A DNA stretch of 64,000 nt. It comes from Nonomuraea sp. NPDC050663 (lineage in GTDB: Bacteria; Actinomycetota; Actinomycetes; Streptosporangiales; Streptosporangiaceae). This document shows, one piece after another, positions 4,831 through 33,767 of this stretch (position 1 is its first letter; each line of letters begins with the position of its first letter). Position numbers and translations under genes: made by a program. The stretch lies in contig NZ_JBITGL010000015.1 of the NCBI RefSeq assembly GCF_044456985.1, positions 71,269 to 135,268 on the forward strand. Direction: 5' to 3'. The notes beneath the pieces were generated by a model. That model had not been told where the DNA came from. It searched no databases and was given only the letters and a program-made list of their open reading frames with translations.

Positions 4831-4846
4831 GCCGGCGCGCCGGTGG

Positions 4847-12961: not shown

Positions 12962-13029
12962 GGGGCTCCTCCTGCTTGGTCAGCACGTCGGTCGTCTCTT
13001 AGGTCGTCTCACAGGTCGTCTCTCGGGTC

Positions 13030-15948: not shown

Positions 15949-16015
15949 TCTAGCGAGTGAGGATTGCAGCGAGGTTGAGCATCTCTTGCGGTGTTATGGG
16001 TAGCGCGTCACGCTT

Positions 16016-17458: not shown

Positions 17459-17472
17459 CCATCACGCCAGGG

Positions 17473-18072: not shown

Positions 18073-18710
18073 GGGTAACGCCTCCGCCTGGAGATGTTGC
18101 AGCGCACGTAGTAGACCGAATAGTGGAGCAGCGCGACCATCAGGATGCTGATCAGCAGCAGGGTCAAGTTGGGTGACTGGCGGGCCAGGCCGGTGACGCC
18201 GACGGTGAGGTAGGCGGAGTTGGCGATGGCCAGCATCATGACGTTGATGCCGGGCCAGGTGAGCGGCGCGTAGGTCTCTGGGAACTGCGGGTTGGTCGGC
18301 AGGTTGGGCGACCAGTTGAGATCCTTCTTGAGCCGTCCGGTGTAGAGCAGGCGGAAGTTGTTGAGCGCCCGCGCGGTCCTGGCGTGCGCGTCGACGGCTT
18401 CGATCATGCGCAGGAACGGCAGCACGCCGAGCACCCCGAAGGCCGCGACCAGGGCGAACAGGTACCAGGGCACGGTCTCCCAGCTGGTCAGGCTGGCCGG
18501 GTCGACGACCTTGGTGCTGGCCAGCGCGATCGCCGCCGCGAAGGGCGCGGACAGCAGGCTCATCGCCAGCCTGGTCATTTTCAGCCGTTCATCCTTGGCG
18601 GCGAGGTGAACCGCGTAGATGCCGGTGAAGTCCACCGCTGCGAGGTGGAGGAAGTGGCTCGTTTCGAGCTGCTCGTCCTCCGTGGCCATGCGTGGGGGTG
18701 TCTTCCGCAT
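18069..18710 (-). CDS. Hypothetical 4-TM membrane protein, translationally coupled (ATGA) to the ThyA-like gene
   Basis: Four hydrophobic helices. The stop overlaps the downstream start codon. Confidence 0.5.
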   Translation of the reverse strand: MRKTPPRMATEDEQLETSHFLHLAAVDFTGIYAVHLAAKDERLKMTRLAMSLLSAPFAAAIALASTKVVDPASLTSWETVPWYLFALVAAFGVLGVLPFLRMIEAVDAHARTARALNNFRLLYTGRLKKDLNWSPNLPTNPQFPETYAPLTWPGINVMMLAIANSAYLTVGVTGLARQSPNLTLLLISILMVALLHYSVYYVRCNISRRRRYP

Positions 18711-18852
18711 GAGGACGCTCCTGGACTGGGTTCCTTCAGTATGCGCACTCTCCGCCGCATTTCCAGGGCTTTCTTGCCATTTGTTCCAACAAATCTCAAC
18801 TGGTATGGGTCAGGATGGACCCTCACACGGTGTCATGCCCTAGAAAGACAAC

Positions 18853-19731
18853 ATGACAGCTGATTGGTGGCACCCCGACCTGCACGGACTCGTCGTTCTC
18901 CAGGGTGACGAGCTGATCTTCGAGAGGTACGGCGAGGGCGAGGACTACCGGCTCGACGAGGCGCTCGGACACGTGAGGTTCGGCCCGGAGACGCCGCACG
19001 ACATCCGGTCGGTTAGCAAGAGCGTGGTCGGCCTGCTGTACGGTACGGCGCTCGCCGAGGGGGCGGTGCCCGAGCCCTCCGCGAGTCTGATGGAGCAGTT
19101 CCCCGAATATGGCGACATCTCAGGCAAGGACGCCCTCACGATCCAGCACGCCCTCACCATGACCCTGGGCCTGCACTGGGACGAGAGCGTGCCGTACACC
19201 AGCATCGCCAACAGCGAGATCGCCATGGAGATGGCGCCCGACCGCTACCGCTACATCCTGGAGCAGCCGCTGGTCCAGGAGCCCGGCACGGGATGGCACT
19301 ACACCGGCGGCGCGTCGGCCCTGGTGGGGCGCATCATCGAGAAGGGCACGAGCCTGCCGCTGGAGGAGTACGCGGACGCCAGGCTCTTCCGGCCGCTCGG
19401 CATCTCGTCGTGGGAGTGGTCGCGTGGAGCCGACGGCGTGGTGCTGGCCGCATCGGGCCTGCGGCTCGCGCCCCGCGAGCTCGCCGCGATCGGGCGGTTC
19501 GCGATGGAGGTGCCCCTGGAGCCGATGATCAAGCGCGAGGACGGCGGTTCGTACGGCATGCAGTGGTATGTCGGCGACGGCTGGCGGGGCGGCTTCGGCA
19601 ACGGCGGGCAGCGCCTGATCGTCTTCCCGGCGCGCAAGGTGGTCATCGCGGCGACCGCCGGGCTCTACAACAACGACACCGCGACCGTCGATCAGCTGCT
19701 CTGGAACACCGTCATCCCCGCCATCACCTGA
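18853..19731 (+). CDS. Serine hydrolase / beta-lactamase-family protein
   Basis: SxxK motif RSVSKSVVGLLYG and a class C beta-lactamase/esterase-like pattern. Confidence 0.7.
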   Translation: MTADWWHPDLHGLVVLQGDELIFERYGEGEDYRLDEALGHVRFGPETPHDIRSVSKSVVGLLYGTALAEGAVPEPSASLMEQFPEYGDISGKDALTIQHALTMTLGLHWDESVPYTSIANSEIAMEMAPDRYRYILEQPLVQEPGTGWHYTGGASALVGRIIEKGTSLPLEEYADARLFRPLGISSWEWSRGADGVVLAASGLRLAPRELAAIGRFAMEVPLEPMIKREDGGSYGMQWYVGDGWRGGFGNGGQRLIVFPARKVVIAATAGLYNNDTATVDQLLWNTVIPAIT

Positions 19732-20552
19732 TGGAACGCGCTGACCGCCGGATGCCCGCCGTATCCTCGCCGGAAGGCGATCAACGTGCGGCGGCTGATC
19801 GGCAGCGGCGTCAGCCGTACGCCCGGGTGGGGTGAGCGCGCCGCCAGTTCCGGCACCAGCGCGACGCCCTGCCCGGCGGCGGCGAAGGCCAGGACCGTGT
19901 CGAAGTCGTCGAGATGATGGCGCGCCCGCGGCTCGAACCCGGCCGCCTGGCAGGCCCGGATCGTCATGGTGTGGCAGAGCGTGCCGGGTTTGGCGAGGAT
20001 CCACGGATCGTCGCGGGCCTCCTCCAGGCTCGCGCGCTGGGTCAGGAAGACCGCCTCGCTGAACAAGGCGTGGGTCTCGACGCTGCGATCGGTGATCGGC
20101 GGGACGAAGTCGTACTCATGGATCAGCGCCACGTCCAGCTCGCCCGCGCGCAGCGCCGCCGAGACGTCGGCCGGATCGATCTCGGTGACCATCGGCTCCA
20201 GGCCGGGCGGCAGCCCGGCGAGGGCGGGCGGGAGCAGGGTGCGGGCGGCCGTGGGGAACGCGCCGATCCGCAGCGGCCCGCGCGGCCCCTCTGTCACCGC
20301 CCGGAGCGCCGCTTCGGCGCGTTCGAGCTGCTCAAGTACGGCTTGCGCGTGCTCGACCAGCAGGTGCGCGGCCGGGGTCAGGGTGACCGTGCGGCCGGTC
20401 CGCTCCAGCAGGGGCACGCCCGCCTCACGTTCGAGCGCGGACAACTGCTGCGAAACCGCGCTCGGGGTGAACGTGAGCGCCTCGGCCACGGCGGCGATCG
20501 TGCCGCGATGGGCCAGTTCGCGCAGGAGGCGGAGCTTGCGAGGGTCCAGCAT
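19692..20552 (-). CDS. LysR-family transcriptional regulator
   Basis: [51 protein letters not shown]. Confidence 0.85.
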   Translation of the reverse strand: MLDPRKLRLLRELAHRGTIAAVAEALTFTPSAVSQQLSALEREAGVPLLERTGRTVTLTPAAHLLVEHAQAVLEQLERAEAALRAVTEGPRGPLRIGAFPTAARTLLPPALAGLPPGLEPMVTEIDPADVSAALRAGELDVALIHEYDFVPPITDRSVETHALFSEAVFLTQRASLEEARDDPWILAKPGTLCHTMTIRACQAAGFEPRARHHLDDFDTVLAFAAAGQGVALVPELAARSPHPGVRLTPLPISRRTLIAFRRGYGGHPAVSAFHQVMAGMTVFQSS

Positions 20553-20623
20553 CAGATCAGCTTACGCTCAACAGCACAAACGTGAACTGGACCTGCACGA
20601 TGAGGCCGCCGCATGGTGGAGGC

Positions 20624-21478
20624 ATGCTTGCAGGAATCCACGTACCGCTGATCACCCCCTTCGCCGCCGACGGCTCGGTCGACCTGGCCGGTCTCGACAA
20701 GCTCGCCCACCACGTCCTCGACCAGGGCGCCAGCGGCCTGGTCGCGCTGGGCACCACCGGTGAGATCGCCACGCTGACCGAGGCGGAGCGCGCCGCCGTC
20801 GTGGAGGTGGCGGCCCGGGCCGCGCGCGAGCACGGCGCCACGCTGATCGTCGGCGGCGGGAGCCCCGACCCGCGCGCCACGGCCGAGACCCTGCGGTCGC
20901 TCCGGGCCGACGCGGCGCTGGTCACGGTGCCGTCTTTCGTACGGCCCGGCGAGCGCGGGGTGGTGGCCTACTTCGAGGCGCTGGCCGCGGCCACGGCGGT
21001 CCCGCTGGTGATCTACCACATTCCCTATCGGACCGGGCAGAGCGTCGGCGCCGAGACGCTGCGCCACCTGGGCGGGCTGCCGATGGTCGCCGGGGTGAAG
21101 TACGCCTCCGGCCTCGACGCAACGGCCGTTTCGCTGCTGGGAGATCTGCCCGAGGACTTCTCGGTGCTCGCGGGCGACGACGTGTTCGTCTCGCCGCTGC
21201 TCGCGCTGGGTGCGGCGGGCGGCATCCTGGCCTCCGCCCATCTGGCCACGCGCGACTTCGTCGAACTGGCCGGCGCCTGGGGTGCGGGGGACGTGGCGCG
21301 GGCGCGGGCGCTCGGTGCCAGGCTGGCTCGGCTGTCGGGCGCGCTGTTCGCCGAGCCGAACCCCACCGTGCTCAAGGGCGTGCTGCACGCCCAGGGGATG
21401 ATCGCGACGGCCGACGTGCGGCTGCCCCTGCTGCCCGCCGGGCGGGACTCGGTCGAAGCGGCTCTCGCGTCACTGTGA
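20624..21478 (+). CDS. Dihydrodipicolinate synthase/N-acetylneuraminate lyase-family (DapA-like) aldolase
   Basis: GIHVPLITPF...VALGTTGE...; Schiff-base Lys in VAGVKYASG; TIM-barrel DapA pattern. Start at the ATG giving MLAGIHVPL. Confidence 0.75.
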   Translation: MLAGIHVPLITPFAADGSVDLAGLDKLAHHVLDQGASGLVALGTTGEIATLTEAERAAVVEVAARAAREHGATLIVGGGSPDPRATAETLRSLRADAALVTVPSFVRPGERGVVAYFEALAAATAVPLVIYHIPYRTGQSVGAETLRHLGGLPMVAGVKYASGLDATAVSLLGDLPEDFSVLAGDDVFVSPLLALGAAGGILASAHLATRDFVELAGAWGAGDVARARALGARLARLSGALFAEPNPTVLKGVLHAQGMIATADVRLPLLPAGRDSVEAALASL

Positions 21479-23123: not shown

Positions 23124-23168
23124 GACGAGACGTTGCGTCTTGCTGGTTTGCCGGGTAGTGTTCCAGGC

Positions 23169-23192
23169 ATGGGTTACCAGATCTTCCTGTAA
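23169..23192 (+). promoter_or_regulatory. 7-codon upstream ORF (MGYQIFL*) in the ABC-F leader, 67 nt before the ABC-F start
   Basis: atg ggt tac cag atc ttc ctg taa, read directly, followed by a GC-rich segment capable of secondary structure. Candidate ribosome-stalling leader peptide. Confidence 0.35.
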
Positions 23193-23259
23193 GCGCCGCA
23201 GGCGTCGAGCACGCGCTCCGCCGCACATCCGCCCGTGCACGCAACCAGGAGGACTATTT

Positions 23260-25107
23260 ATGCGCACCGCGCAACTCGCACTCTCTTCCATCACCAAGCG
23301 CTACGACGACCGCGTCGTGCTCGACCAGGTCTCGCTCACCGTCAAGCCGGGCGAGCGGATCGGGGTCATCGGCGACAACGGATCCGGGAAGTCCACGCTG
23401 CTCAAGCTCATCGCCGGGGCCCTGACCCCCGACAACGGCGAGCTGACCGTGGTCGCGCCCGGAGGGATCGGCTACCTCGCCCAGACCCTCGACCTGCCCG
23501 CCGAGGCCACCGTCCAGGAGGCCATCGACCTGGCCCTCTCCGACCTCCGCACCCTGGAGGCCGACCTGCACACGATGGAGGAGAACCTTGACGAATCCAC
23601 CCTTGAGGCCTACGGCGAGCTGATCGCCCGCTTCGAGGCCCGCGGCGGGTACGACGCCGACAACCAGGTCGACGCCGCCCTGCACGGGCTCGGCCTGCCG
23701 TCGCTCGACCGCGGACGGACGCTGGGCAGCCTGTCGGGCGGCGAACGCTCCCGGCTCGCCCTCGCCGCGACCCTCGCCTCCGCACCCGAACTGCTCCTGC
23801 TCGACGAACCCACCAACGACCTCGACGACCAGGCCGTGGCCTGGCTGGAGCAGCACCTGCGCGGCCACCGCGGCACCGTCGTCGCCATCACCCACGACCG
23901 GGTCTTCCTGGAACGCATCACCTCGGTGATCCTGGAGGTCGACCTCGGCAAGGTGCGGCGCTACGGCAACGGGTACTCCGGCTACCTCGCCGCCAAGGCG
24001 GCCGAACGCGCCGCCTGGGCGCGGCGGCACGAGGAGTGGGTGCTGGAGGTCGAACGGCACAGCGGCCTCGTCGCGGCCAACGCGGGGAGGATGGCGGCGA
24101 TTCCTCGCAAGATGTCCAAGGCGGGGATGGGCGGGATCGGCGCCTGGCGTGCTCGCGGGCGTTCCCACGGGGCGATGGGTCGCATCCGGCAATCACAGGC
24201 GCGCCTGGACGCCCTCCGGGGCGACCCGGTCGTGGCACCGCCGGAGCGGCTGCGCTTCAGCGCCTCGATCACGACGAGTACGGGCACGGGGTCGGGCGGA
24301 CCGCTCGCCGGTGCAGTGGGCTCGCCGCGGGCGGGCGGCTTGCTCGACGCCGCGGACCCGGGCGCGCGACCGGTCGGCGGTTCGCGTGATGCCGCCCTCT
24401 CGACTCCATCACCGGCCCTCGGCGGCCTCGCCGCCGCGCTGACCACCCCAGACGGCCCCTCCACCCTCGACCAGCCCTGGCACTCCATCGCCGAAACCAT
24501 GCTCACCCAGCTCTTCCCCCCGAGGGCCGAGCTGACCGACGTCACCGTCGCCTCCCGCCTGCACCTGCCCGGCGGCCTGCGCATCGGGTACGGCGAACGC
24601 CTGCTCGTCACCGGCCCCAACGGCGCCGGCAAGTCCACGCTCATGCGCGTCCTCGCCGGCGAGCTCACCCCCGACACCGGCACCGTCCACGTCAACGGCA
24701 CCGTCGGCTACCTGCGACAGGAGGAAACCCCCTGGAACCCGGCACTCACCGTGCTCCAAGCCTTCGCCTCCGGCCGCCCCGGTGACCCGGAGGAGCACGC
24801 CGACGCCCTCCTGTCGCTGGGCCTGTTCCGCCCCGCCGACCTCCGGCTCCGGGTCGGCGAGCTGTCGTACGGCCAGCGCCGCCGCATCGAGCTCGCCCGC
24901 CTCGTCACCGACCCCGTCGACCTGCTCCTCCTCGACGAGCCCACCAACCACCTGTCTCCTGCGCTGGTGGAGGAGCTCGAGGAGGCCCTGGTCGACTACC
25001 CGGGCGCGCTGGTGATCGTCACCCACGACCGCCGCATGCGTTCCCGCTTCACCGGCACCCACGTGGAGCTCGACGCGGGCAAGATCGTCGCCCGTCGCAC
25101 CGTGTGA
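23260..25107 (+). CDS. ABC-F family ATPase (two NBDs, no TMD) with an extended low-complexity inter-domain region
   Basis: Two Walker A motifs (GDNGSGKST, GPNGAGKST), two signatures (LSGGERSRLALA, LSYGQRRRIELA) and two Walker B motifs (LLLLDEPTN x2). AGGAGG Shine-Dalgarno 7 nt upstream of ATG 23260. Confidence 0.85.
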   Translation: MRTAQLALSSITKRYDDRVVLDQVSLTVKPGERIGVIGDNGSGKSTLLKLIAGALTPDNGELTVVAPGGIGYLAQTLDLPAEATVQEAIDLALSDLRTLEADLHTMEENLDESTLEAYGELIARFEARGGYDADNQVDAALHGLGLPSLDRGRTLGSLSGGERSRLALAATLASAPELLLLDEPTNDLDDQAVAWLEQHLRGHRGTVVAITHDRVFLERITSVILEVDLGKVRRYGNGYSGYLAAKAAERAAWARRHEEWVLEVERHSGLVAANAGRMAAIPRKMSKAGMGGIGAWRARGRSHGAMGRIRQSQARLDALRGDPVVAPPERLRFSASITTSTGTGSGGPLAGAVGSPRAGGLLDAADPGARPVGGSRDAALSTPSPALGGLAAALTTPDGPSTLDQPWHSIAETMLTQLFPPRAELTDVTVASRLHLPGGLRIGYGERLLVTGPNGAGKSTLMRVLAGELTPDTGTVHVNGTVGYLRQEETPWNPALTVLQAFASGRPGDPEEHADALLSLGLFRPADLRLRVGELSYGQRRRIELARLVTDPVDLLLLDEPTNHLSPALVEELEEALVDYPGALVIVTHDRRMRSRFTGTHVELDAGKIVARRTV

Positions 25108-25359: not shown

Positions 25360-28300
25360 TCAGCTTCCCCGAATCGCCGTACCCACTTCGCTCACCCGGT
25401 CGGCGAGCAGCCCGATCGCCCCCACTGCCCGCGTCACCGGATCGTCCTCCGCCCCGCCCAGCGCCCGAGTGCGCAGGAACGCCTGCTTGACGTCCCTCCA
25501 TCGCGCCTCCTGCTCGGCGGTCAGCACGCCCCGCAGCTCGGCCAGCTTCAGCAGGTTCGACTCCGCGTCCGTCGTCAACGTCTGCGCCTCACCCAAGTAG
25601 TGGTCGGAGATGACCGCCTCCAGCTCGGCGTCGTTCATCGCGGGGACGATGCGCTCGGCGAGCTTGTTCATGTTCCGGTACGACCCTTGCAACTTGTACG
25701 GAGGCTCGGTGCGCGCATCGTCGGACTGGGCGGCCGAGGCGATGTAGGCCCGGTTGTTGGCGAGCACCACCTCCTGCACCCTGATCAGCTTGCGCAGGAC
25801 GGCGAGGACCTGCTCCAGCTCGACCTTGGAGTACGGGTGCGTGAGCTGGTCGGCACGGACCGACGAGTCGCCGCGTGCCAGCCGGACCAGCAGCTCCACG
25901 TCGCCCCGGTCGCGGGTGGACAGCGGGGCGAGCACCGGGTTGGAGGTCAGGGCGTTGTCAACGTAGCTCAGCGCGAACAGCTCCTCCCTGCCGCTGAGCA
26001 CGTCGCCGAGGTTCCACACGTCGGCGCGGTTGGAGAGCATGTCGGGGATGCGGAAACGCTGCCCCGACTCGGTGTACGGGTTGCCCGCCATGCACACGGC
26101 GAAGCGCTTGCCCCGCAGGTCGTAGGTGCGGGTGCGGCCGTTCCACACGCCCTCGATACGCCGCTGGGCGTCACACAGCGAGATGAACTTCTGCAGCAGC
26201 TCGGGCGAGGTGTGCTGGATGTCGTCGAGGTAGAGCAGCGTGTTGTTGCCCGACTCCAGCGCGAAGGAGATCTTCTCGACCTCCTGGCGGGCGGTGGCGT
26301 TGGGCGCCTCGGCGGGGTCGAGCGAGGTGACGTCATGACCGAGCGCCGGGCCGTTGACCTTGACGAAGAGCAGGCCGAGACGGCTGGCGACGTACTCCAT
26401 GAGCGTCGTCTTGCCGTAGCCGGGCGGTGAGATGAGCAGCAGGAGGCCCATCTGGTCAGTGCGCTTGCCCTCCCCGGCCGCGCCGAGCTGCTTGGCGAGG
26501 TTGTCGCCGATGAGCGGCAGGTAGACCTCGTCGAGCAGCCGGTTGCGCACGAAGGCGCTCATGACCTTGGGCTTGTACTCCTCGAGCCGCAGCCTGTCCT
26601 TCTCGACCTGGACCAGCTCGTTGCGGCGCTTCTGGTAGGCCCGGTAGGCGGGCACCCGCTCGTCGCGGAAGGCCTTGGTCCTGGGCAGGATCTCGTCGAG
26701 CCTGACCTCCAGCTTGCGCTCGGAGATGCGGGGATGGGTGCCGAGCAGCCCTTCGATGGTGGCGGTCAGGGTGGCGCCGGAGTCGTAGCGCGGCACGTCG
26801 CACAGCAGGAGCGCCAGCGCCTCGGGCAGCTCCGGCGCCTGCTCGAACGCCTCCAACCAGGCCTGGGCGAGCTGGACCCTGTACGGCAGGGCGAGCTGAT
26901 GGAGGTCGGCCTGGAACTCCTTGGCCTTGTCGGGGCCGAGTGCCTGGTGGAAGCGCTCGACCAGGGCCCGGGCGGCGGCGCTGGTGACGAAGCCGGCAGG
27001 GGTGGCGGCCAGCTCCTCGACGAGGTACTCGCCCGCGAGCGCCGCCGTCGCCCCGTCGACCCCGAGAGCCGCGGCCAGGTCGGCGACGGTTCGGTCGTCG
27101 GGGGTGTGGGAGCTCGCGCCGTGGTGACCGTTGGTGGAGCTCGGGGCTTGGGGGATGGGGGAGCTTGCGTGCGCGCCCACCGCGCCGGATGGTGAGGGAC
27201 CGGTGGCGGCCGAGCTGGATGGTGAGGGACCGCCGGTGGCCGAGCTGGATGGTGAGGGACCGCCGGTGGCCGAGCTCATCGCCGCGCCCGCACCAGGCGT
27301 GGGGAGGTGGCCGCCGGAGGACGATGCCGGGAAGTGGCCGCTGGCTGTGGGCGAGGCTGGGTGGTGGGCGGCGGGGTGCGGCTGCATGGGGCGGCTGCCG
27401 GGGGCGAACCCGGTGCCGGTGCCGGTGCCGATGCCCGTGCCGATGCCCGTGCCGGTGTCGGTGGTGGTGTCGGTGGTGGACGTGGCGCTAGTGGCGGTGG
27501 TGCCGGCGGCGGGAGTGCTGGTGCCGGTGGTGCCGGTTTCGGTGGTGGTGCCGGTGTCGGGGGTGGCGGTGCCGGAGTCGGCGGTGGCGGTGAAGCCCGT
27601 GGGGTGGCCGCTGGGTGACGGTGACGGGGTCGTCGCTGGGGGGCTGGTAGCGGTGAGTGCCTGCCCGCCGAACGGTGCTCCCTGATCCGAGCGGGTACGG
27701 TCCGAGCGGGTGTGGTCCGAGCCGACACCCGCCAAGAACCGGGCGATCGCACCCCCCAACTCCCCGCTCAATGCCTCAACCCCGCCCGACCCGCCGAACA
27801 ACCCCCGAGCCCGCGCCAACGACGAGGCGCGCACGGCGATTGTTTTACGTGAAACCTCGTCCACCCCATAAGCCCAATACAGCTGCGCCGCGGCCCGAGC
27901 CCTCGACGGGAAGCGCAACAACCCAGCCCCCGACGTGAGCCGTACGAGCGCGTCGAGGATCAGCGCCGCGTCGTGGTCGTGCACTCCCCGCTCGTATCCC
28001 TCGTCGTAGCGCGACTCCGCCGCCTGCCGTACGAGCGCGGGGAGGTCGTCGTCGGGGCGGGCGGTGGCGAGGAGGGCGGCGGCCAGGTGTTCGCCGCGGT
28101 AGACGGCGGGCGTCTCGGAGACGAGGAGCTGGTCCCAGAAGGGGCGGGTGTCGGCGAAGGTCGCGGGGGCGGGGGAGCGGTAGTCGGTGCCGGTGATGGA
28201 GAAGTGCATCGCCCCGTCGTGGGGCACGAGCGTGAGGTCGATGGGCTGGGTGTTGACCGCGAATCGGTGGCGTCCGAGGCGCAGGGTCTCGCCGCCGTCG

Positions 28301-30819
28301 GTGAACAGGTCGAGCCGGTCGCGCAGGGCGCGGCCGGCTTCCTGCTGGGCGGCCTTGATGCGGCCGTCGAGCTCTTCGGCGCGCACGCTGTCGCCCAGCT
28401 CGCGCAGCTCGGACGACACCGAGCGGAGCTTGGTGATCATGGGGTCGGTGGCGAAGTAGGTGTTGACGTCGTCGAGCGAGCCGAGCGTGGAGACGCGGCG
28501 CGAGACGCTGGCCAGGATGCGTGAGGCCGAGGTGAAGAGCCGGTCGGTGCGGCGGGTGCGCTCGTCGAGCAGGGTCTGCTTGCGCGCGGAGAACGCCTCG
28601 TAGACGTCGTCGCGCTTGTCGGCGAGCTGGGCGGAGAAGTCGTCGAGCTCGCCGAAGCGGGACTCGAGGGTCTCCAGCTGCAGCATGAGCTTGCCGAGCT
28701 GCTCGTCGCAGCGCTCGGGGGTCTCGGACATGGCCAGCGCGCCGGTGACGGCCTGGCCGAGCAGGGCGAACTCGGCGGCGAAGGCGGCGCGGCCCTCGAC
28801 GGTCATCAGCTCGCGGCGGCGGCCGTCGAGGATGGCACGCGCGCGGTTGACCCCGGCGATCACCTCGGCGATGCGGGCCAGGATGGAGGTGCGGACGGTG
28901 GCGTCGGCGATGTCGAGCGAGCCGACGACCTCGGTGACGACCTCCAGCCCTTCCGACTGGACGGCGAGTTTCTCGACGACGGGGGCCGACTGCGACACGG
29001 TGGTGATCGCCCCGGCCTCGGCGGCGAGCTGCTCGACGGCGGCGTGGTAGCCGGTGAAGGCGTCGGCGCCCCGCAGGAAGGAGACGGCGCGTTCGCCGAC
29101 GGACTTCAGCTCGGACGCCAGCTCGGCGGCGAGCTCGTCGAGCCGGGTGGCGTCGATGTAGCGGACCTCGCGCAGCCCGACCAGCCGCCCTTGGGCGCGG
29201 CGCAGCGAGGCGAGCGAGGCGACCCACGCGTCGGCGGAGCCGGGTGTGTCGCCCCGCGCCTGGCGGACCAGCGTGACGGTCTCGTCGGAGGCCTCGCGCA
29301 GCGCCCGCTCGGCCTGCGCGGTGAGCTGCTCGACCTTCTCGAACTCGTCGAGCACCTGCTCGGCGGTGGCGCGCACCTCGGCCAGCGGCTCGCGCAGGCC
29401 GTGTTCGCCGAGCCAGTGGTAGTGGTCGGCGGCGCGGGTGCAGGCGGCGATGAGCGCCTCGAACATCGCCTCTGAGGCGGCCATCTCGTCGGCCATGCGC
29501 GACACGGACAGCGCGTCGGAGATGCCACGCACCAGCTCGGCGTTGCCGATGCGCTCCAGCGGCCCGGCGCCGGTGGGCTGGGCGGCGGCGTAGGTGTCGG
29601 AGACGTAGGGGGTCTGCCAGACCTGCATCGGGTGCACGCGGGTCGGCTCGTCGGAGGTGGCCCGAAAGACGATCATCGTGCCGTCGTCGAACAGCGAGAA
29701 GCCGTGGCACGGGATCGGGTTGGCCACCTCCTTGCGGATCACGTTGTAGGGCAGCAGCAGCGACCTGCCGTCGCCGCGCGCGTGGAAGACGTAGAGCGCG
29801 TCCTCGCCGTTGGGCGAGCGGATGACGCGCTCGAACTCGAGGTCGGTGACGTCGGTGTCGAAGGTCTTGCTGATGCCGGTGGACAGGTAGTAGCCGCCGG
29901 GGAAGATCAGGCCCTGGTCCTCGGGCAGCCGCTGGCAGGCCTGGCCGATGCCGTCGAGCCTGGTGACGCTCTTGGTGCGGGTGTTGAAGACCAGGTGGCG
30001 CCAGACGGTCTCCTTGTAGGGCTTGATGCGCAGCAGGAGGAGCGGGCCGATGCGGGCGTATTCGACGTCGGCGTCGGCGAGCGACTGCAGGGGCTCGTTG
30101 ACGGGCTCGGTGTAGATGCCCTCGCCCGACTCGGTGTTGTCCTCGATCTTGATCGTCAGGTCGCCGCCGACCGTCTCGACGAACACCTCGTTGCCGATCG
30201 CGATGTGGGGATGGCGGCCGAGGATGTGGTCGTCGCGGGTGGTCGGGATCCACTCGAAGTCGTGGGACGGCGGCATGACGTGGTCGCGCTCGCCGCGGGC
30301 GTCTTCGTAGGTCGGCACCCCGGCGGTGTCGACGCTCCATCGGAGCACGCGCGTGTCGCTGGGACCGGTCTGGAAGACGGCCAGCAGCTTGCCCTCCACC
30401 CGGCGGAGCTGGGTGAGCCTGGTCTCCTTGTAGTAGCGGTACAACTCGGCGAAGTCCTTACCGAAGACGGGGTCGTTGAGCGACGCCAACTCTGCCGCCT
30501 CGAACCTGAACGCCGAGCCCTCCCGGGTGAACCTGTGGACAGAGAACACGTCGTTGACGGACGTCTCGGACTTCAGGCCGATGAAGACGTTGTAGCCGAA
30601 CAACATCACGTCGCCGAGCGAGACGATGTCCCTCGGGACGCAGTTGTTCTCGGTGCGAAGGCGCTCGGTGCCGATGAGCGTGAGCTCCGACCCGCCGAAG
30701 ACCTCCAGGCGCTGGGTGTTGAGGCTCTCCGCCGCCTGGGCCAGTTCATTCGACTGGGCGAGCAGGCGGTTCCTGAGCACCTCGTAGGTGCCCGCCTCGA
30801 GGCCGGTCGTCTCGGTCAT
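25360..30819 (-). CDS. Giant (1819 aa) multidomain protein: N-terminal beta-rich domain, long coiled coil, disordered T/G/S/P-rich linker, C-terminal AAA-type ATPase
   Basis: Single uninterrupted ORF. C-terminal Walker A LLISPPGYGKTTLMEY, Walker B TLLYLDDIQH, and sensor-like NPYTESGQRFRIPDMLSNR. Central region rich in E/A/R/L heptad-like sequence. Low-complexity linker around 27100-27700. Confidence 0.8.
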   Translation of the reverse strand: MTETTGLEAGTYEVLRNRLLAQSNELAQAAESLNTQRLEVFGGSELTLIGTERLRTENNCVPRDIVSLGDVMLFGYNVFIGLKSETSVNDVFSVHRFTREGSAFRFEAAELASLNDPVFGKDFAELYRYYKETRLTQLRRVEGKLLAVFQTGPSDTRVLRWSVDTAGVPTYEDARGERDHVMPPSHDFEWIPTTRDDHILGRHPHIAIGNEVFVETVGGDLTIKIEDNTESGEGIYTEPVNEPLQSLADADVEYARIGPLLLLRIKPYKETVWRHLVFNTRTKSVTRLDGIGQACQRLPEDQGLIFPGGYYLSTGISKTFDTDVTDLEFERVIRSPNGEDALYVFHARGDGRSLLLPYNVIRKEVANPIPCHGFSLFDDGTMIVFRATSDEPTRVHPMQVWQTPYVSDTYAAAQPTGAGPLERIGNAELVRGISDALSVSRMADEMAASEAMFEALIAACTRAADHYHWLGEHGLREPLAEVRATAEQVLDEFEKVEQLTAQAERALREASDETVTLVRQARGDTPGSADAWVASLASLRRAQGRLVGLREVRYIDATRLDELAAELASELKSVGERAVSFLRGADAFTGYHAAVEQLAAEAGAITTVSQSAPVVEKLAVQSEGLEVVTEVVGSLDIADATVRTSILARIAEVIAGVNRARAILDGRRRELMTVEGRAAFAAEFALLGQAVTGALAMSETPERCDEQLGKLMLQLETLESRFGELDDFSAQLADKRDDVYEAFSARKQTLLDERTRRTDRLFTSASRILASVSRRVSTLGSLDDVNTYFATDPMITKLRSVSSELRELGDSVRAEELDGRIKAAQQEAGRALRDRLDLFTDGGETLRLGRHRFAVNTQPIDLTLVPHDGAMHFSITGTDYRSPAPATFADTRPFWDQLLVSETPAVYRGEHLAAALLATARPDDDLPALVRQAAESRYDEGYERGVHDHDAALILDALVRLTSGAGLLRFPSRARAAAQLYWAYGVDEVSRKTIAVRASSLARARGLFGGSGGVEALSGELGGAIARFLAGVGSDHTRSDRTRSDQGAPFGGQALTATSPPATTPSPSPSGHPTGFTATADSGTATPDTGTTTETGTTGTSTPAAGTTATSATSTTDTTTDTGTGIGTGIGTGTGTGFAPGSRPMQPHPAAHHPASPTASGHFPASSSGGHLPTPGAGAAMSSATGGPSPSSSATGGPSPSSSAATGPSPSGAVGAHASSPIPQAPSSTNGHHGASSHTPDDRTVADLAAALGVDGATAALAGEYLVEELAATPAGFVTSAAARALVERFHQALGPDKAKEFQADLHQLALPYRVQLAQAWLEAFEQAPELPEALALLLCDVPRYDSGATLTATIEGLLGTHPRISERKLEVRLDEILPRTKAFRDERVPAYRAYQKRRNELVQVEKDRLRLEEYKPKVMSAFVRNRLLDEVYLPLIGDNLAKQLGAAGEGKRTDQMGLLLLISPPGYGKTTLMEYVASRLGLLFVKVNGPALGHDVTSLDPAEAPNATARQEVEKISFALESGNNTLLYLDDIQHTSPELLQKFISLCDAQRRIEGVWNGRTRTYDLRGKRFAVCMAGNPYTESGQRFRIPDMLSNRADVWNLGDVLSGREELFALSYVDNALTSNPVLAPLSTRDRGDVELLVRLARGDSSVRADQLTHPYSKVELEQVLAVLRKLIRVQEVVLANNRAYIASAAQSDDARTEPPYKLQGSYRNMNKLAERIVPAMNDAELEAVISDHYLGEAQTLTTDAESNLLKLAELRGVLTAEQEARWRDVKQAFLRTRALGGAEDDPVTRAVGAIGLLADRVSEVGTAIRGS
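27187..27276. repeat. 3 x 30-bp tandem repeat (ggatggtgagggaccgccggtggccgagct) inside the giant ATPase CDS
   Basis: Read directly. It encodes the SSATGGPSPS x3 tract. The adjacent GT-rich tract at 27400-27560 encodes TG/GI dipeptide repeats. Confidence 0.8.
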
Positions 30820-30883
30820 CGTCCTGTCCTTCTCGTGGCCGGGCTGACAGCAGCCGTCGCCGTGGCCGGGCTAACAGAGATCG

Positions 30884-30914
30884 CGTACGGCGAAGCGGTC
30901 CGCTCCGCCGTACG
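30884..30914 (-). promoter_or_regulatory. Intra-operon hairpin (CGTACGGCG-N13-CGCCGTACG) between the flotillin stop and the giant ATPase start
   Basis: Perfect 9-bp inverted repeat. An adjacent 16-bp direct repeat, GTGGCCGGGCT(G/A)ACAG, occurs twice at about 30829-30875. Confidence 0.4.
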
Positions 30915-30925
30915 CCCGCCTCGGA

Positions 30926-33076
30926 TCAGTTTCTCGCCGCCGTCAGCGCCGCCACGGGGGACTCGGCCACGCCGAGCCGCCTGGCCGTCTCCAGCAGCTC
31001 GTTGAGCTTGCCGGTGTCGGGCCCGCCGCCCTGGATGAGCTTCAGCAGCAGCGCCGAGATGGTCAGGTTCTTCAGGTCGTCGGTCGACACCCCGCTGAGG
31101 ATGCGCCCGAGGTCGGCGGTCAGGCTGGCCGACCCGTTGAGGTACGGCTCGGCGAGCGAGGAGGCGACGGTGGAGTGCCCGACGAACCCGTCGACGGCCT
31201 TGCCCGCGGTGATCGAGCCGACGATCCGGTCGAAGAACGTCGATTCGCCGCCGACGATGTCGATGTTGGCCTTGGCCAGACCTGCGGCGACCACGGAGGC
31301 CTGCGACTCGGCGACCTGGCGCTGCACGTCGATGCGCTTGAGCTCGACGTCCTTGGACGCCTCCAGCCGCAGGCGGTACTCCTCGTGGGCGCGGGAGGCG
31401 TCGTCGAGCGCGGCCATCGCGGCGGCCTTCTCGGTGAGACCTTCTGCCTCGGCCTTGAGCTTCTCGCCCACCGCGGAGGCCTGGGCAACCGCCATGGCGG
31501 CGGCGCCTTCGGCTTCGGCCTTCAGCTTGGAGGCGAGGGCGCCGGCCAGCGCGGTCTCGCCGTCGGCCTGGGCCTTGAGCCTGTCGCCCTGGGCCAGGGC
31601 CATGGCGCGGGCGCCGTCGGCCTCGGCGCGCAGCTTCTCGGACAGGACGAGGGCTTCGGCGCGGCCGACCTTCTCGATCGCCTCCGCGTCGCGCTCGCGC
31701 ACCTGCACCTTGGCCAGGCCTTCCGCGGCGGCGGACGCCTGGACGCCCTCGGCGAGACGGATCTTGGCGCGGGCTTCGAGGTCGGCGGCCTGCTGGCGGG
31801 CCTCGGCGAGCACGATCTCCTCGCGGGCCTTGAACTTCGAGGCGGCCTCCGCGGCCTCGGCGGCCTTGATGTCCTTGACCAGGTTCTCCTGGGCCTCGGC
31901 CTCGGCGGCGATGATCGTGGTCTGCCGCAGCCGCTCGGCCTCTTCGAGTGCGCGCAGCTTCTTGATGCCCTCTTCCTGCTCGGCCACGGTCTTCTCGACC
32001 ACGATGCGCTCGCGGATCACCTCGGCGATCGAGCGCTTCTCCGTCTCGACCTCCTTGTCCTTGGCGATGCGCGACAGCTCGGTCTCCCGCTCGCGCGAGA
32101 TGACCTCCAGCATGCGGTCCTTCTCGATGCGCTCGGACTCGATGGCGATGACCCGCTCGCGGTTCTTCTCGGCCACCGCGACCTCGCGGGCGCGGTTCTC
32201 GTTCTGGACGCCGAGCTGCTCGTCGGTCTTGAGCGCGGCCGACTGGGCGCGCAGGCGCTCCTCGGCCTGGACGCGGAAGATCTCCGCCTCTTCGCGGGCC
32301 CTGAGCGTCTCGATCTCGCGCTTCTGCTTCAGCTCCGCGTCGGCCTGGCGGCGCTCCAGCTCCAGGATGGCCTCGCGCGCCTCGACGTTCTGGCGGGTGA
32401 TCTCCTTCTCCTCGTTGCGCGTGAACTCGTTGGTGCGCACGTGCTCCAGGGCCGTCAGCTCGGTGATCTTGCGGATGCCCTGGGCGTCGAGGATGTTGCT
32501 CTTGTCGAGCTGGATCAGCGAGGTCTGCTCCAGGTAGTCGATCGCGGCGTCCTCGAGGATGTAGCCGTTGAGGTCGGTGCCGATGATCCGGATGATCTCG
32601 TCGCGGAACTCGTCGCGCTTGGTGTAGAGGTCCACGAAGTCGAGGTGCTTGCCGGCGGTCTTCAGCGCCTCGGAGAACTTGGCGTTGAACAGCTCCTGCA
32701 GGGTGGTCTCGTTGCTGGCCCGCTCGGTGCCGATGGCCTGGGCGACCTTGATGACGTCTTCGGCGGTCTTGTTGACGCGGACGAAGAAGGTGATGCGGAT
32801 GTCGGCCCTGATGTTGTCGCGGCAGATCAGGCCCTCGCGGCCGGAGCGTTCGATCTCCATCGTCTTGACCGAGATGTCCATGATCTCGGCGCGGTGGAAG
32901 ACGGGGAAGACGACGGCGCCGGTGAAGGTCACGTCGACCTTGTTGATCTTCGAGATGACGAGCGCCTTGCCCTGCTCGACCTTCTTGAACAGGCGGCTGA
33001 TCACGATCAGCAGACCGATGATCACGATGAGGACCACGGCCAGCAGGACGCCGAAGCCGGTGGAGATGACGTCCAT
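30926..33076 (-). CDS. Flotillin-family (SPFH/band-7, YqiK/FloT-like) protein, 716 aa
   Basis: N-terminal TM MDVISTGFGVLLAVVLIVIIGLLIV, SPFH domain, then a long E/A/R/K-rich coiled-coil flotillin tail. Start set at ATG 33076-33074, which overlaps the NfeD stop (TGATG). The ORF-track start at 33442 would overlap NfeD by 366 nt. Confidence 0.85.
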   Translation of the reverse strand: MDVISTGFGVLLAVVLIVIIGLLIVISRLFKKVEQGKALVISKINKVDVTFTGAVVFPVFHRAEIMDISVKTMEIERSGREGLICRDNIRADIRITFFVRVNKTAEDVIKVAQAIGTERASNETTLQELFNAKFSEALKTAGKHLDFVDLYTKRDEFRDEIIRIIGTDLNGYILEDAAIDYLEQTSLIQLDKSNILDAQGIRKITELTALEHVRTNEFTRNEEKEITRQNVEAREAILELERRQADAELKQKREIETLRAREEAEIFRVQAEERLRAQSAALKTDEQLGVQNENRAREVAVAEKNRERVIAIESERIEKDRMLEVISRERETELSRIAKDKEVETEKRSIAEVIRERIVVEKTVAEQEEGIKKLRALEEAERLRQTTIIAAEAEAQENLVKDIKAAEAAEAASKFKAREEIVLAEARQQAADLEARAKIRLAEGVQASAAAEGLAKVQVRERDAEAIEKVGRAEALVLSEKLRAEADGARAMALAQGDRLKAQADGETALAGALASKLKAEAEGAAAMAVAQASAVGEKLKAEAEGLTEKAAAMAALDDASRAHEEYRLRLEASKDVELKRIDVQRQVAESQASVVAAGLAKANIDIVGGESTFFDRIVGSITAGKAVDGFVGHSTVASSLAEPYLNGSASLTADLGRILSGVSTDDLKNLTISALLLKLIQGGGPDTGKLNELLETARRLGVAESPVAALTAARN

Positions 33077-33627
33077 CAGGAAACCCTTTCGTCGGGCATG
33101 ACGTAGTAGAACTCGCCGCCCGCGTCGTAGTCGAAGATGAGGGCCTTGTCGCCGCGCTTGAGCACGTCGGCGCCGGTGGTGCGCACCTGGACGACCGCGG
33201 TGGAGCCGTCGGCGGCGGTGACCTCGGCCTGCCCGAAGCTGTTGCCGGCCAGGCCGGTGCGCACCACGCACGGCATGCCGACGAAGTCGTGGCGGGAGGG
33301 CGAGGCGGCGGGTGCCAGCCGCCGCAGCGGCTTGACCAGCAGTTTGGTGACGAACCACGAGGCCGCCACGGCCAGCACGAGCACGCCCACGCGCAGGGGC
33401 GTGCTGTCGACGAAGGTGCCTCCCGCGAGGCTGAAGAACCACGCGAGGGCGATCAGCAGCGACAGCGTGACCCCGGCGGGCACGCCGCTCAGGCCCAGCC
33501 AGGCCAGGTCCTCGTCAAGGTGGGTCAGGCCGGTCACCACGACGATCCAGTAACCGATCACGACCACGAGCAGGAACGTGAAGATGACCGCTGGGAACGC
33601 CAGCGTAGCGTCGATGAAGTCGCTCAT
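33076..33627 (-). CDS. NfeD-like (YqiJ/YuaF-type) membrane protein
   Basis: N-terminal TM helices plus a C-terminal OB-fold-like beta region (VVRTGLAGNSFGQAEV...VVQVRTTGADVLKRGDKALI). The canonical partner sits upstream of flotillin, with a stop/start overlap. Confidence 0.7.
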   Translation of the reverse strand: MSDFIDATLAFPAVIFTFLLVVVIGYWIVVVTGLTHLDEDLAWLGLSGVPAGVTLSLLIALAWFFSLAGGTFVDSTPLRVGVLVLAVAASWFVTKLLVKPLRRLAPAASPSRHDFVGMPCVVRTGLAGNSFGQAEVTAADGSTAVVQVRTTGADVLKRGDKALIFDYDAGGEFYYVMPDERVS

Positions 33628-33767
33628 CGGCTCCCCGTAAATACCCCGTAAAGCGGAGTGCCGACTATATCCCCGTTAACCATCGTTTTTCAGTATCTGA
33701 GCTGGCATTGCAGCCGACTTGCTATCGAGTTGACCTCGACCGCACTTGAGGTTGCATCGTCGAAGAC

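What the first reader, a model, noticed from the sequence alone, without database searches (positions are those of the whole stretch)
25360..33627. NfeD-flotillin operon extended by a giant 1819-aa propeller / coiled-coil / AAA-ATPase protein
Three co-directional, tightly linked genes. NfeD and flotillin overlap by TGATG; flotillin and the ATPase are separated by 106 nt containing a hairpin and a direct repeat. NfeD plus SPFH/flotillin is the established YqiJK/YuaF-FloT scaffold pair. The third gene is unusual: a beta-rich N-terminal domain of about 450 aa, about 600 aa of heptad-like coiled coil, a roughly 200-aa disordered T/G/S/P linker encoded by tandem DNA repeats, and a C-terminal AAA-type ATPase (Walker A GYGKTT, Walker B LLYLDD). 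Proteins of this size and class are generally annotated only vaguely and, to my knowledge, have no assigned function. Physical linkage to a flotillin scaffold suggests a membrane-microdomain-associated mechano-ATPase of unknown function, for example membrane remodelling, repair or envelope stress.
Basis: partly seen in the sequence, partly recalled or inferred. Interest (0 to 1): 0.75.

Follow-up and report, generated by a model that had tools for sequence, protein, structure and literature searches.

The report
Flotillin operon with giant AAA+ ATPase
A three-gene operon (small membrane protein, flotillin scaffold, giant soluble ATPase) is real and stayed together in all 86 genomes checked, but a 2024 comparative-genomics paper already described this operon type and its function is still untested.

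Summary
On the minus strand lie a 183-aa 3-TM protein (33627..33076), a 716-aa flotillin (33076..30926, TGATG overlap) and an 1819-aa soluble protein (30819..25360) after a 106-nt spacer with a 15-bp hairpin. The strain is a Nonomuraea.

The giant protein is Pfam DUF3686 + DUF7902 + AAA, which NCBI names 'DNA repair ATPase'. Models give a beta-propeller, long helices, a roughly 208-aa repeat-encoded linker and a MoxR/RuvB-like AAA+ module with an invariant 'DD' Walker B.

The flotillin is YqiK-type. The small protein is YqiJ/NfeD-type only by transitive homology.

A flotillin orthologue lies upstream, on the same strand, in 86 of 86 loci with upstream DNA, across at least eight phyla. Stop and start overlap in 17 loci; elsewhere a lineage-variable hairpin usually follows the flotillin gene. 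In Hymenobacter and on Pseudomonas plasmid pQBR103 the triad follows CesT/Tir-PspA.

Ravi et al. 2024 (PMC11237479) already described this operon and its PspA-less 'abbreviated' form. This locus is therefore a new member of a known, experimentally uncharacterised kind.

Most likely it is a flotillin-dependent, ATP-driven membrane-stress or remodelling machine. Nothing here supports DNA repair or phage defence.

The parts
33664..33693 (-). Sigma-70-like promoter candidate upstream of the first gene (CTGAAA, 18-nt spacer, TATAGT).
   Evidence: This is a consensus match only, in the AT-richer divergent intergenic region shown.
33076..33627 (-). Gene 1: a 183-aa YqiJ/NfeD-like membrane protein with three TM segments (aa ~3-101) and a C-terminal beta-rich domain (aa ~114-178, motif FVG..C.V.T....FGQAEV...DGS.A.VQVR...G..ALI..YD..GEF..V.P).
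   Evidence: It has no Pfam, NCBIfam or PDB-sequence hit of its own. hhalign to E. coli YqiJ is weak (probability 12.9%, E 0.002, collinear). hhalign to positional orthologues from other phyla is strong (99.8%, E 2.7e-28); two of those pass Pfam's YqiJ_N cut-off and one is sub-threshold for NfeD.
30926..33076 (-). Gene 2: a 716-aa YqiK-type flotillin with an N-terminal membrane anchor (aa 1-34), an SPFH domain, a long E/A/R/K-rich coiled coil containing a 54-nt tandem repeat (31475-31627), and a conserved C-terminal region.
Evidence: BLASTP to E. coli YqiK gives 29% identity over 463 aa, E 6e-38. hhalign gives 99.7%, E 4.7e-27. Band_7 hits 7 of 39 orthologues. NCBI names the 99%-identical protein 'flotillin family protein'.
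30883..30915 (-). Intercistronic hairpin directly after the flotillin stop: a 15-bp perfect stem with a 3-nt loop, followed by GATCTCTGTT.
   Evidence: An equivalent strong hairpin is present in 38 of the 47 related loci whose gap is at least 60 nt; its sequence differs between lineages.
30834..30872 (-). Two exact copies of AGCCCGGCCACG, 27 nt apart, just upstream of the ATPase start codon. Function unknown; possibly an operator or promoter element.
   Evidence: two copies in the window, and 0 of 100 shuffles reach two.
25360..30819 (-). Gene 3: an 1819-aa soluble protein of the DUF3686 family, named 'DNA repair ATPase' in databases, with no TM segment.
29416..30747 (-). N-terminal helix plus beta-propeller domain (Pfam DUF3686, aa 25-468).
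   Evidence: Pfam E 1e-214. The AF2 model has pLDDT about 90 over aa 47-402 with about 27 strands. Foldseek matches WD40 (DCAF1), the clathrin terminal domain and the prolyl-oligopeptidase propeller at E 1e-5 to 1e-4.
28309..29562 (-). Long-helix region (aa 420-837), including Pfam DUF7902 (aa 586-670; 28810-29064).
   Evidence: It aligns as a single stretch with homologues down to 28% identity.
27724..28287 (-). Small beta domain (aa 845-883) plus a helical domain (aa 886-1032) containing the invariant motif G945, H947, D948 and D950.
27094..27717 (-). Low-complexity T/G/S/P/A linker (aa ~1035-1242) encoded by tandem DNA repeats and expanded in this strain.
   Evidence: Homologues have a median length of 1630 aa, and only 3 of 79 reach 1800 aa.
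25363..27093 (-). C-terminal module (aa 1243-1819): helical and small beta pre-domain, AAA+ core (aa ~1450-1620; 25960-26472) and a helical lid or extension. Walker A is at 26404-26430 and Walker B (DD) at 26212-26238.
   Evidence: AF2 pLDDT is 86.9. Foldseek against the PDB gives NorQ, CbbQ (MoxR family), RuvB and MCM at E about 1e-7. K1470 is near-invariant, and D1532, D1533, N1580, R1598 and R1715 are invariant or nearly so across 62 diverse homologues.

Best explanation
The locus is an actinobacterial copy of a widely distributed three-gene module. The first gene encodes a YqiJ/NfeD-type 3-TM protein. The second encodes a YqiK-type flotillin, which would build an oligomeric SPFH scaffold on the cytoplasmic face of the membrane. 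The third encodes a soluble giant protein with a propeller, a helical arm, a flexible linker and a MoxR-like AAA+ motor.

Inferred mechanism: the small protein anchors or nucleates the flotillin assembly. The giant protein docks on that assembly through its N-terminal propeller and helical arm, oligomerises through its AAA+ ring, and uses ATP to remodel either the flotillin assembly or proteins held at it. PspA/IM30 is a candidate client. The whole would be a sub-membrane stress or repair machine.

Where the two large genes do not overlap, the intercistronic hairpin probably lowers ATPase expression relative to flotillin.

Shown here: the identity of the parts, the obligate linkage to flotillin, the coupling signals between the genes, and the recurrent PspA context. 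Inferred: physical contact, oligomeric state, substrate and physiological role.
For: Linkage: a flotillin orthologue (37-84% identity) lies immediately upstream on the same strand in 76 of 76 genome loci with upstream DNA and in 10 of 10 further loci. Those ten come from Verrucomicrobiota, Planctomycetota, Bacteroidota, Sumerlaeia, Deinococcota, Pseudomonas and two unnamed long contigs.

Coupling: stop and start codons overlap in 17 of 76 loci, and the gap is 35 nt or less in 27 of 76.

Co-divergence: flotillin and ATPase identities to the window proteins correlate with r = 0.83 over 75 loci.

Asymmetry: E. coli yqiJK has no such ATPase, whereas the ATPase was never seen without the flotillin. 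This suggests that the ATPase depends on the flotillin.

Membrane-stress context: the triad is fused to CesT/Tir-PspA in Hymenobacter and to YjfI-PspA plus polyamine genes on pQBR103. A divergent PspA plus AAA gene pair lies next to it in a verrucomicrobium. Dokdonia shows the same fusion, as published (PMC11237479).

Experimental precedent: the SPFH protein YdjI localises PspA to the membrane in B. subtilis (PMC8581546). [quoted passage not shown] 2024), and NfeD-type partners have been proposed to promote SPFH oligomerisation (Tan et al. 2024; Ukleja et al. 2024); both are as cited in PMC13086221.

Motor: the Walker A and B, sensor-1 and arginine positions are invariant or nearly invariant, and the fold is MoxR/RuvB-like.

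Localisation: the ATPase has no TM segment, while both partners are membrane-anchored.
Against: There is no experimental datum on any member of the DUF3686 family: no paper in the held library contains 'DUF3686' or 'PF12458'. No PspA or CesT homologue was detected in the window or in the 80 closest loci, so a PspA link in this organism is only by analogy. Walker B is DD rather than the canonical DE in the whole family, so hydrolysis could be slow and the ring might act as a nucleotide switch rather than a motor. The 15-bp hairpin could be a full terminator, which would make the ATPase a separate transcription unit in this strain.
Confidence: 0.5

Rival explanations
1. The flotillin is only a platform. 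The AAA+ ring acts as an unfoldase or assembly chaperone for client membrane proteins gathered at the scaffold. This is the HflK/C-FtsH logic without a protease domain, or the way MoxR ATPases mature specific complexes.
For: The closest solved folds are the MoxR-family remodelers NorQ and CbbQ. SPFH cages are known to house the AAA+ protease FtsH (PMC13220708 abstract). The propeller could bind clients. Dysgonomonas has an M54 metallopeptidase gene inserted between the flotillin and the ATPase genes.
Against: There is no VWA partner, which is the usual MoxR cofactor, in any locus examined. No conserved client gene sits in the neighbourhood. The ATPase has no membrane anchor or protease domain. 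The evidence in hand does not really separate this from the main explanation.
Confidence: 0.2
2. The triad is a conflict or anti-phage system. A large NTPase with a propeller sensor would trigger a membrane effector, namely the SPFH protein and the 3-TM protein, in the way MoxR-vWA or STAND-type systems work.
For: The distribution across phyla is patchy. Copies occur on megaplasmids such as pQBR103 and on Deinococcus and Streptomyces plasmids. The NTPase is giant and carries a repeat-type sensor domain. One locus has Fic, RhuM and ORF6N genes inserted inside the module.
Against: PADLOC gives only chance-level P-loop matches. There are no PHROG hits. None of 50,697 phage records carries the domain. 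Only 13 of 72,556 'plasmid' records carry it, and several of those are chromosome-sized. Conservation is very high: mean column identity of the flotillin orthologues is 66%, and identity stays at 40-50% across phyla. Flanks are syntenic within Nonomuraea and Streptomyces. The window's flanks are ordinary metabolic genes. No nuclease, protease or toxin domain is present.
Confidence: 0.08
3. The large protein is what its database name says, a DNA repair ATPase, and its position next to the flotillin is incidental.
For: Pfam describes DUF3686 as 'ATPase involved in DNA repair' and NCBI names the protein 'DNA repair ATPase'. There are weak sequence and fold matches to RuvB.
Against: The RuvB matches cover only the generic P-loop and AAA+ core, at 20 bits against cut-offs of 282-299. 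MoxR-family folds score equally well or better. No DNA-binding or nuclease domain was found. Obligate, often translationally coupled linkage to two membrane proteins (86 of 86 loci) is not what a DNA repair factor would show. No supporting literature was found.
Confidence: 0.03

Closest known systems
[quoted passage not shown]
   Same: [quoted passage not shown] The Hymenobacter and pQBR103 relatives found here carry the full CesT/Tir-PspA version. The window locus matches the 'abbreviated operon' the authors describe as more widely distributed.
   Different: No CesT/Tir or PspA gene lies in this 64-kb window. The paper gives no Pfam family, structure, linkage statistics or experiment. This copy has an unusually long repeat-encoded linker and a hairpin-containing spacer.
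E. coli YqiJ-YqiK and B. subtilis YuaF-FloT (short NfeD plus flotillin pairs)
   Same: A small multi-TM protein gene lies directly upstream of, and overlaps or abuts, a flotillin gene. The window flotillin is 29% identical to YqiK over 463 aa (E 6e-38).
   Different: E. coli yqiJK is followed by sibD/ibsD and hldE, not by an ATPase. The flotillin here is about 160 aa longer than YqiK. The small protein matches YqiJ only weakly.
HflK/C-FtsH and other pairs of an SPFH cage with an AAA+ machine
   Same: An SPFH scaffold is genetically and probably physically paired with a ring ATPase (PMC13220708 abstract).
   Different: There is no protease domain and no TM anchor on the ATPase. The AAA+ clade differs: it is MoxR/RuvB-like rather than classic-clade FtsH. 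These scaffolds are predicted to face the cytoplasm. The comparison is an analogy only.
MoxR-family AAA+ ATPases (NorQ, CbbQ, RavA)
   Same: They are the best structural matches to the AAA+ module. Pfam AAA_5 matches the window protein weakly and is precomputed on most homologues, and JGI names some homologues 'MoxR-like ATPase'.
   Different: No VWA-domain partner is present. There is a roughly 1,450-aa N-terminal extension. Walker B is DD. Sequence identity is only 13-19%.
B. subtilis YdjI-PspA (an SPFH protein that recruits ESCRT-III-like PspA to the membrane; PMC8581546)
   Same: It is an experimentally shown link between an SPFH protein and PspA-based membrane repair. That is the context in which relatives of this triad occur.
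   Different: YdjI belongs to a different SPFH subfamily with different partners (YdjG/H) and has no ATPase.

Membership tests
SPFH/flotillin (YqiK type) | SPFH (Band 7) domain detectable by sequence | tested here: met
   The window protein gives no Pfam hit of its own. BLASTP to E. coli YqiK gives E 6e-38, hhalign gives 99.7%, and Band_7 is found in 7 of 39 orthologues.
SPFH/flotillin (YqiK type) | N-terminal membrane anchor followed by a long E/A-rich coiled coil | tested here: met
   A hydrophobic segment covers aa 1-34. The region from aa ~200 to 560 is E/A/R/K-rich and aligns with the YqiK coiled coil.
SPFH/flotillin (YqiK type) | Forms large oligomeric cages or foci at the membrane | not testable with these tools
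   This needs biochemistry, cryo-EM or microscopy.
NfeD / YqiJ (short form) | C-terminal NfeD OB-fold domain (PF01957) | tested here: inconclusive
   There is no hit in the window protein or in 40 orthologues. The Novipirellula positional orthologue is sub-threshold (E 0.003, 18.2 bits against a cut-off of 29.1). A five-strand-like motif is conserved. No structure was predicted.
NfeD / YqiJ (short form) | YqiJ-type N-terminal multi-TM domain (PF21001) | tested here: inconclusive
   Three TM segments are present. There is no direct hit. The Dysgonomonas and Aureispira orthologues pass the cut-off (26.8 and 23.8 bits against 23) and are homologous to the window family (hhalign 99.8%). hhalign to E. 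coli YqiJ itself gives only 12.9%.
NfeD / YqiJ (short form) | Encoded directly upstream of, and co-oriented with, an SPFH gene | tested here: met
   There is a TGATG overlap in the window. A homologue was detected upstream by tblastn in 66 of 76 genome loci, and a small upstream protein is present in most of the distant loci.
AAA+ ATPase | Walker A, Walker B, sensor 1 and arginine residues in an AAA+ fold | tested here: met
   Walker A is SPPGYGKTT and Walker B is LYLDD, a DD variant. N1580, R1598 and R1715 are invariant or nearly invariant. The model has pLDDT 86.9 and matches AAA+ structures.
MoxR subfamily of AAA+ | Paired VWA-domain partner protein | tested here: not met
   No VWA gene was seen next to the module in any locus examined. 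The resemblance is one of fold only.
Pfam DUF3686 / 'DNA repair ATPase' | Match to PF12458 above the gathering score, with a C-terminal AAA domain | tested here: met
   713.5 bits against a cut-off of 25. DUF7902 scores 99.9 bits and AAA 27.9 bits.
Pfam DUF3686 / 'DNA repair ATPase' | A role in DNA repair | not testable with these tools
   No DNA-related domain or neighbour was found and no literature supports the name. The name appears to be a legacy label.
PspA-CesT/Tir-band-7-AAA+ operon (Ravi et al. 2024) | Gene order YqiJ/YuaF, then band-7/flotillin, then beta-propeller + coiled-coil + AAA | tested here: met
PspA-CesT/Tir-band-7-AAA+ operon (Ravi et al. 2024) | Adjacent CesT/Tir-PspA dyad | tested here: not met
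   No PspA or CesT match was found in the window or in L001-L080. The locus is therefore the 'abbreviated' form that the same paper describes.
Known anti-phage defence systems (PADLOC-DB 2.0) | Significant match of any component to a defence-system model | tested here: not met
   Only P-loop-level matches were found, with E values of 0.004 to 0.03.

The most novel reading that the evidence does not exclude
The giant protein is a dedicated machine that coats and uncoats flotillin assemblies. Six or more propeller-and-helix arms, an architecture whose best solved-structure matches are clathrin heavy chain, ROD, Elp1 and nucleoporins, would decorate or bridge flotillin cages. The MoxR-like ring would drive their ATP-dependent assembly or disassembly. 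That would give bacteria an energy-consuming cycle for membrane microdomains, analogous to clathrin with its uncoating ATPase or ESCRT-III with Vps4.
Probability: 0.12. Interest if true: 0.85.

Novelty: new member of a known kind. Interest (0 to 1): 0.4.

Why it matters
What bacterial flotillins actually do is still debated. Deleting several SPFH genes in P. aeruginosa gave no pronounced phenotype (PMC13086221). An ATPase that is never found without a particular long flotillin, is often translationally coupled to it, and is repeatedly fused to PspA operons offers a concrete experimental handle. It predicts that at least one flotillin class is part of an energy-consuming machine rather than a passive scaffold.

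The work here adds several things to the one-paragraph published description. It assigns a Pfam identity (DUF3686 + DUF7902), which shows that the widespread 'DNA repair ATPase' annotation is probably misleading. It adds linkage statistics across phyla, a domain-level structural map, the family-wide DD Walker B, and a conserved intercistronic hairpin that may set stoichiometry. None of this establishes function.

Tried and rejected
- Pfam and NCBIfam on the window's own flotillin and NfeD-like proteins gave nothing, even at E 10.
- PDB sequence and profile searches for both gave only chance hits or none.
- PADLOC, PHROGs and Rfam on 24.8-34.2 kb gave nothing meaningful.
- Literature searches for 'DUF3686', 'PF12458' and 'flotillin' + 'DNA repair ATPase' returned zero papers.
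- The look-up of encoding contigs for the Fulvitalea protein P0416 returned 'not on record'.
- One alignment call failed on an ORF containing an in-frame stop (L068).
- The first N-terminal alignment (A5) misaligned the low-complexity tail with the AAA domain, so it was replaced by A6.
- tblastn with three PspA and two CesT/YjfI proteins found nothing in the window or in L001-L080. Divergent PspA homologues could have been missed.
The TRF result covers that point.
- I considered and rejected the ideas that the 1819-aa ORF is an artefact of high-GC open frames, and that the flotillin-ATPase adjacency is lineage-specific synteny. GC3 is 0.94, a 100%-identical NCBI protein exists, and the Pfam E value is 1e-214. 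The pair persists across at least eight phyla whose flanks are unrelated.


Full report
**1. What is in the window**

The window has about 70% G+C. The flotillin-like protein is 99% identical to a Nonomuraea soli protein, and the large protein is 100% identical to one from Nonomuraea sp. NPDC050663.

Three minus-strand ORFs with actinomycete-type codon bias (GC3 0.89-0.94) occupy 33627..25360:
- a 183-aa protein at 33627..33076;
- a 716-aa protein at 33076..30926, whose ATG overlaps the preceding TGA as TGATG;
- an 1819-aa protein at 30819..25360.

The 106-nt spacer before the third gene holds two features. One is a perfect 15-bp hairpin at 30915..30883. The other is a 12-nt exact direct repeat found nowhere else in the window.

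The unit is bracketed by oppositely oriented genes that look unrelated: an ABC-F-type ATPase downstream, and a zinc dehydrogenase, a rhodanese, a CGNR/ABATE regulator and a hydrolase upstream. A promoter-like site lies upstream of the first gene.

**2. Identity of the parts**

*The large protein.* It matches Pfam DUF3686 (aa 25-468, E 1e-214), DUF7902 (aa 586-670) and, weakly, AAA and AAA_5. NCBI names its homologues 'DNA repair ATPase' and JGI names some of them 'MoxR-like ATPase'. It has no TM segment.

AlphaFold2 models were built on 73-sequence alignments that combine close and distant homologues.
- The N-terminal model (aa 1-1035, pLDDT 85.3) shows a helix at aa 11-41, about 27 strands at aa 47-402, long helices at aa 420-837, a small beta domain at aa 845-883 and a helical domain at aa 886-1032.
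- The C-terminal model (aa 1243-1819, pLDDT 86.9) shows a helical pre-domain, an AAA+ core and a helical extension.

Foldseek against the PDB places the beta domain among propellers: DCAF1 WD40, the clathrin terminal domain and prolyl oligopeptidase. The top whole-model hits are propeller-plus-helix proteins (ROD, clathrin heavy chain, Elp1), at E 1e-6 to 1e-4 with low TM-scores, so this supports only a general architectural likeness.

The AAA+ module is closest to NorQ and CbbQ (MoxR family), RuvB and MCM (E about 1e-7). Across 62 representatives down to about 31% identity, several positions are invariant or nearly so. They are the Walker A residues, a DD Walker B (LYLDDIQH), N1580, R1598 and R1715.

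Residues ~1035-1242 form a T/G/S/P/A linker encoded by tandem repeats. The linker is expanded in this strain: homologues have a median length of 1630 aa, and only 3 of 79 reach 1800 aa.

*The 716-aa protein.* It gave no Pfam, NCBIfam or PDB-sequence hit itself. It is nevertheless a YqiK-type flotillin:
- BLASTP to E. coli YqiK gives 29% identity over 463 aa, E 6e-38;
- hhalign gives 99.7% probability;
- Band_7 is found in 7 of 39 orthologues.

It has an N-terminal anchor at aa 1-34.

*The 183-aa protein.* It has three TM segments and a conserved beta-rich C-terminal domain. None of 40 orthologues hits NfeD or YqiJ models, and hhalign to E. coli YqiJ is weak. Its family is, however, clearly homologous (hhalign 99.8%, E 2.7e-28) to the positional equivalents in other phyla. 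Two of those pass Pfam's YqiJ_N cut-off and one is sub-threshold for NfeD. 'YqiJ/NfeD-like' is therefore reasonable but indirect.

**3. Is the linkage real?**

The N-terminal 1150 aa find 454 clusters (at 50% identity) with E of 1e-30 or better. The first ~1000 aa align as a single stretch down to 28% identity.

A scan of one genome per species found at least 580 carriers, and the best 80 loci were kept. In all 76 loci with upstream DNA, a full-length flotillin orthologue (52-84% identity) lies directly upstream on the same strand. The small protein was detected in 66 of them. These loci include Myxococcus, a deltaproteobacterial MAG, a Clostridia MAG and a proteobacterial MAG.

A profile of the most distant representatives retrieved the same architecture in Verrucomicrobiota, Bacteroidota, Planctomycetota and Sumerlaeia. 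All eight of the loci fetched from that set have the flotillin orthologue upstream (37-50% identity). In one of them it is separated from the ATPase by an inserted block of Fic, RhuM and ORF6N genes.

Two annotated plasmid loci, P. fluorescens pQBR103 and a Deinococcus actinosclerus plasmid, show the same arrangement. That makes 86 of 86.

Three further observations bear on the linkage. Stop and start codons overlap in 17 of 76 loci. Divergence of the two proteins is correlated (r = 0.83). Conversely, E. coli yqiJK lacks the ATPase, so the ATPase looks like an optional add-on that depends on the flotillin.

**4. Context that bears on function**

- In Hymenobacter the order is CesT/Tir, PspA, a 68-aa protein, a YqiJ-like protein, a bPH protein, the flotillin and then the ATPase.
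- On pQBR103 the order is YjfI (CesT/Tir), PspA, a rhomboid protease, DUF2491, DUF350, DUF1190, a glutathionylspermidine synthase, a 217-aa protein, an SPFH protein and then the ATPase.
- In a verrucomicrobium, a divergent PspA plus AAA gene pair lies next door.
- No PspA was found in the window or in the 80 closest loci.
- Streptomyces copies share a divergent PucR-type regulator in 29 loci.
- There are no defence or phage signals, and only 13 of 72,556 plasmid records carry the family.

**5. What is already known**

Ravi, Anantharaman et al. (mSystems 2024, PMC11237479; preprint 2020) describe this same operon. In their words it combines CesT/Tir-PspA with three further genes:
[quoted passage not shown] - a 3-TM YqiJ/YuaF protein.

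The window locus is such an abbreviated operon. I found no experimental study of the ATPase.

Relevant experimental precedents are these:
- YdjI, an SPFH protein, recruits PspA to the membrane in B. subtilis (PMC8581546).
- HflK/C forms a complex with FtsH (PMC13220708 abstract).

**6. Mechanism**

I commit to the following as most likely (about 0.5). The flotillin, anchored or nucleated by the YqiJ-like protein, forms a sub-membrane scaffold. The soluble ATPase docks on it through its propeller and helical arm, oligomerises through its MoxR-like ring, and uses ATP to remodel the scaffold or proteins held at it as part of a membrane-stress response. PspA is a candidate client.

The linkage, the coupling signals, the domain identities and the PspA context are shown here. 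Contact, stoichiometry, substrate and physiology are inferred.

The hairpin after the flotillin gene recurs in 38 of the 47 related loci with a spacer of at least 60 nt. Its sequence differs between lineages, and in most of these loci it sits just after the stop codon. This suggests that it lowers ATPase expression relative to flotillin, but Term-seq is needed to test that.

The rivals are a client-chaperone role (0.2, not cleanly separable from the main explanation), a conflict system (0.08) and true DNA repair (0.03).

**7. Verdict**

The feature is real and well conserved. The functional idea is plausible and matches published inference. The kind of system is already described in the literature, so this is a new member of a known, experimentally uncharacterised kind. 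Interest is moderate (0.4).

The most novel reading not excluded by the evidence is an ATP-driven coat-and-uncoat cycle for flotillin assemblies (probability about 0.12).

Noticed in passing
window 30883-30915 (-); L001-L080 flotillin-ATPase spacers: A strong GC-rich hairpin follows the flotillin stop codon in 38 of the 47 related loci that have a spacer of at least 60 nt. Its sequence differs between lineages but its position is conserved. In 17 other loci the two genes overlap instead. It may be a partial terminator that sets the flotillin-to-ATPase ratio.
   Followed up: partly
window 30834-30845 and 30861-30872 (-): An exact 12-nt direct repeat, AGCCCGGCCACG, occurs twice, 27 nt apart, just upstream of the ATPase start codon. 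These are the only two copies in 64 kb, and 0 of 100 shuffles reach two. The closest relatives have overlapping genes and so have no equivalent spacer.
   Followed up: partly
window 27094-27717 (-): The T/G/S/P/A linker, encoded by tandem repeats, makes this copy about 190 aa longer than the median homologue (1819 against 1630 aa). It looks like a strain-specific repeat expansion in a disordered tether.
   Followed up: partly
window 31475-31627: A 54-nt tandem repeat (2.8 copies, 69% matches) lies inside the flotillin coiled coil and encodes reiterated A/E/G-rich units.
   Followed up: no
L090 (P. fluorescens SBW25 plasmid pQBR103, record 84437-97641): A ten-gene same-strand cluster joins YjfI (CesT/Tir), PspA, a rhomboid protease, DUF2491, DUF350, DUF1190 and a glutathionylspermidine synthase to the triad. 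It sits on a 425-kb environmental megaplasmid.
   Followed up: partly
L081 (Verrucomicrobiota bacterium sgz303538), locus 1151-3750 and 14444-21151: A divergent PspA_IM30 plus 559-aa AAA ATPase gene pair lies upstream of the triad. An RtcR, Ro60-like, RtcB and RtcA RNA-repair cluster lies downstream. A P. aeruginosa SPFH gene has also been reported inside an rtc locus (PMC13086221).
   Followed up: no
L028-L080 (Streptomyces loci), about 270 nt upstream of the triad, opposite strand: A PucR-type regulator of about 357 aa (GGDEF_2 + HTH_30) is divergently transcribed from the triad in 29 loci. It is a candidate lineage-specific regulator and is absent from the window.
   Followed up: partly
L088 locus 1912-7038; L083 locus 6673-7902: Foreign genes are inserted between the flotillin and ATPase genes. 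Dysgonomonas has an M54 (archaemetzincin-like) peptidase plus a 184-aa protein.
   Followed up: no
L053 (Streptomyces tuirus) locus 9998-13126: The ATPase reading frame ends after 1042 aa. This could be a frameshift, a pseudogene or an assembly error.
   Followed up: no
window 25360-30819 (-), aa 1532-1533: Walker B is DD rather than DE in every member of the family examined (62 and 73 sequences). This may mean slow hydrolysis or switch-like behaviour.
   Followed up: partly
window 23140-25107 (+): A 655-aa protein with two ABC domains (ABC-F type) converges on the 3' end of the ATPase gene. It is not conserved next to the triad in other genera.
   Followed up: partly
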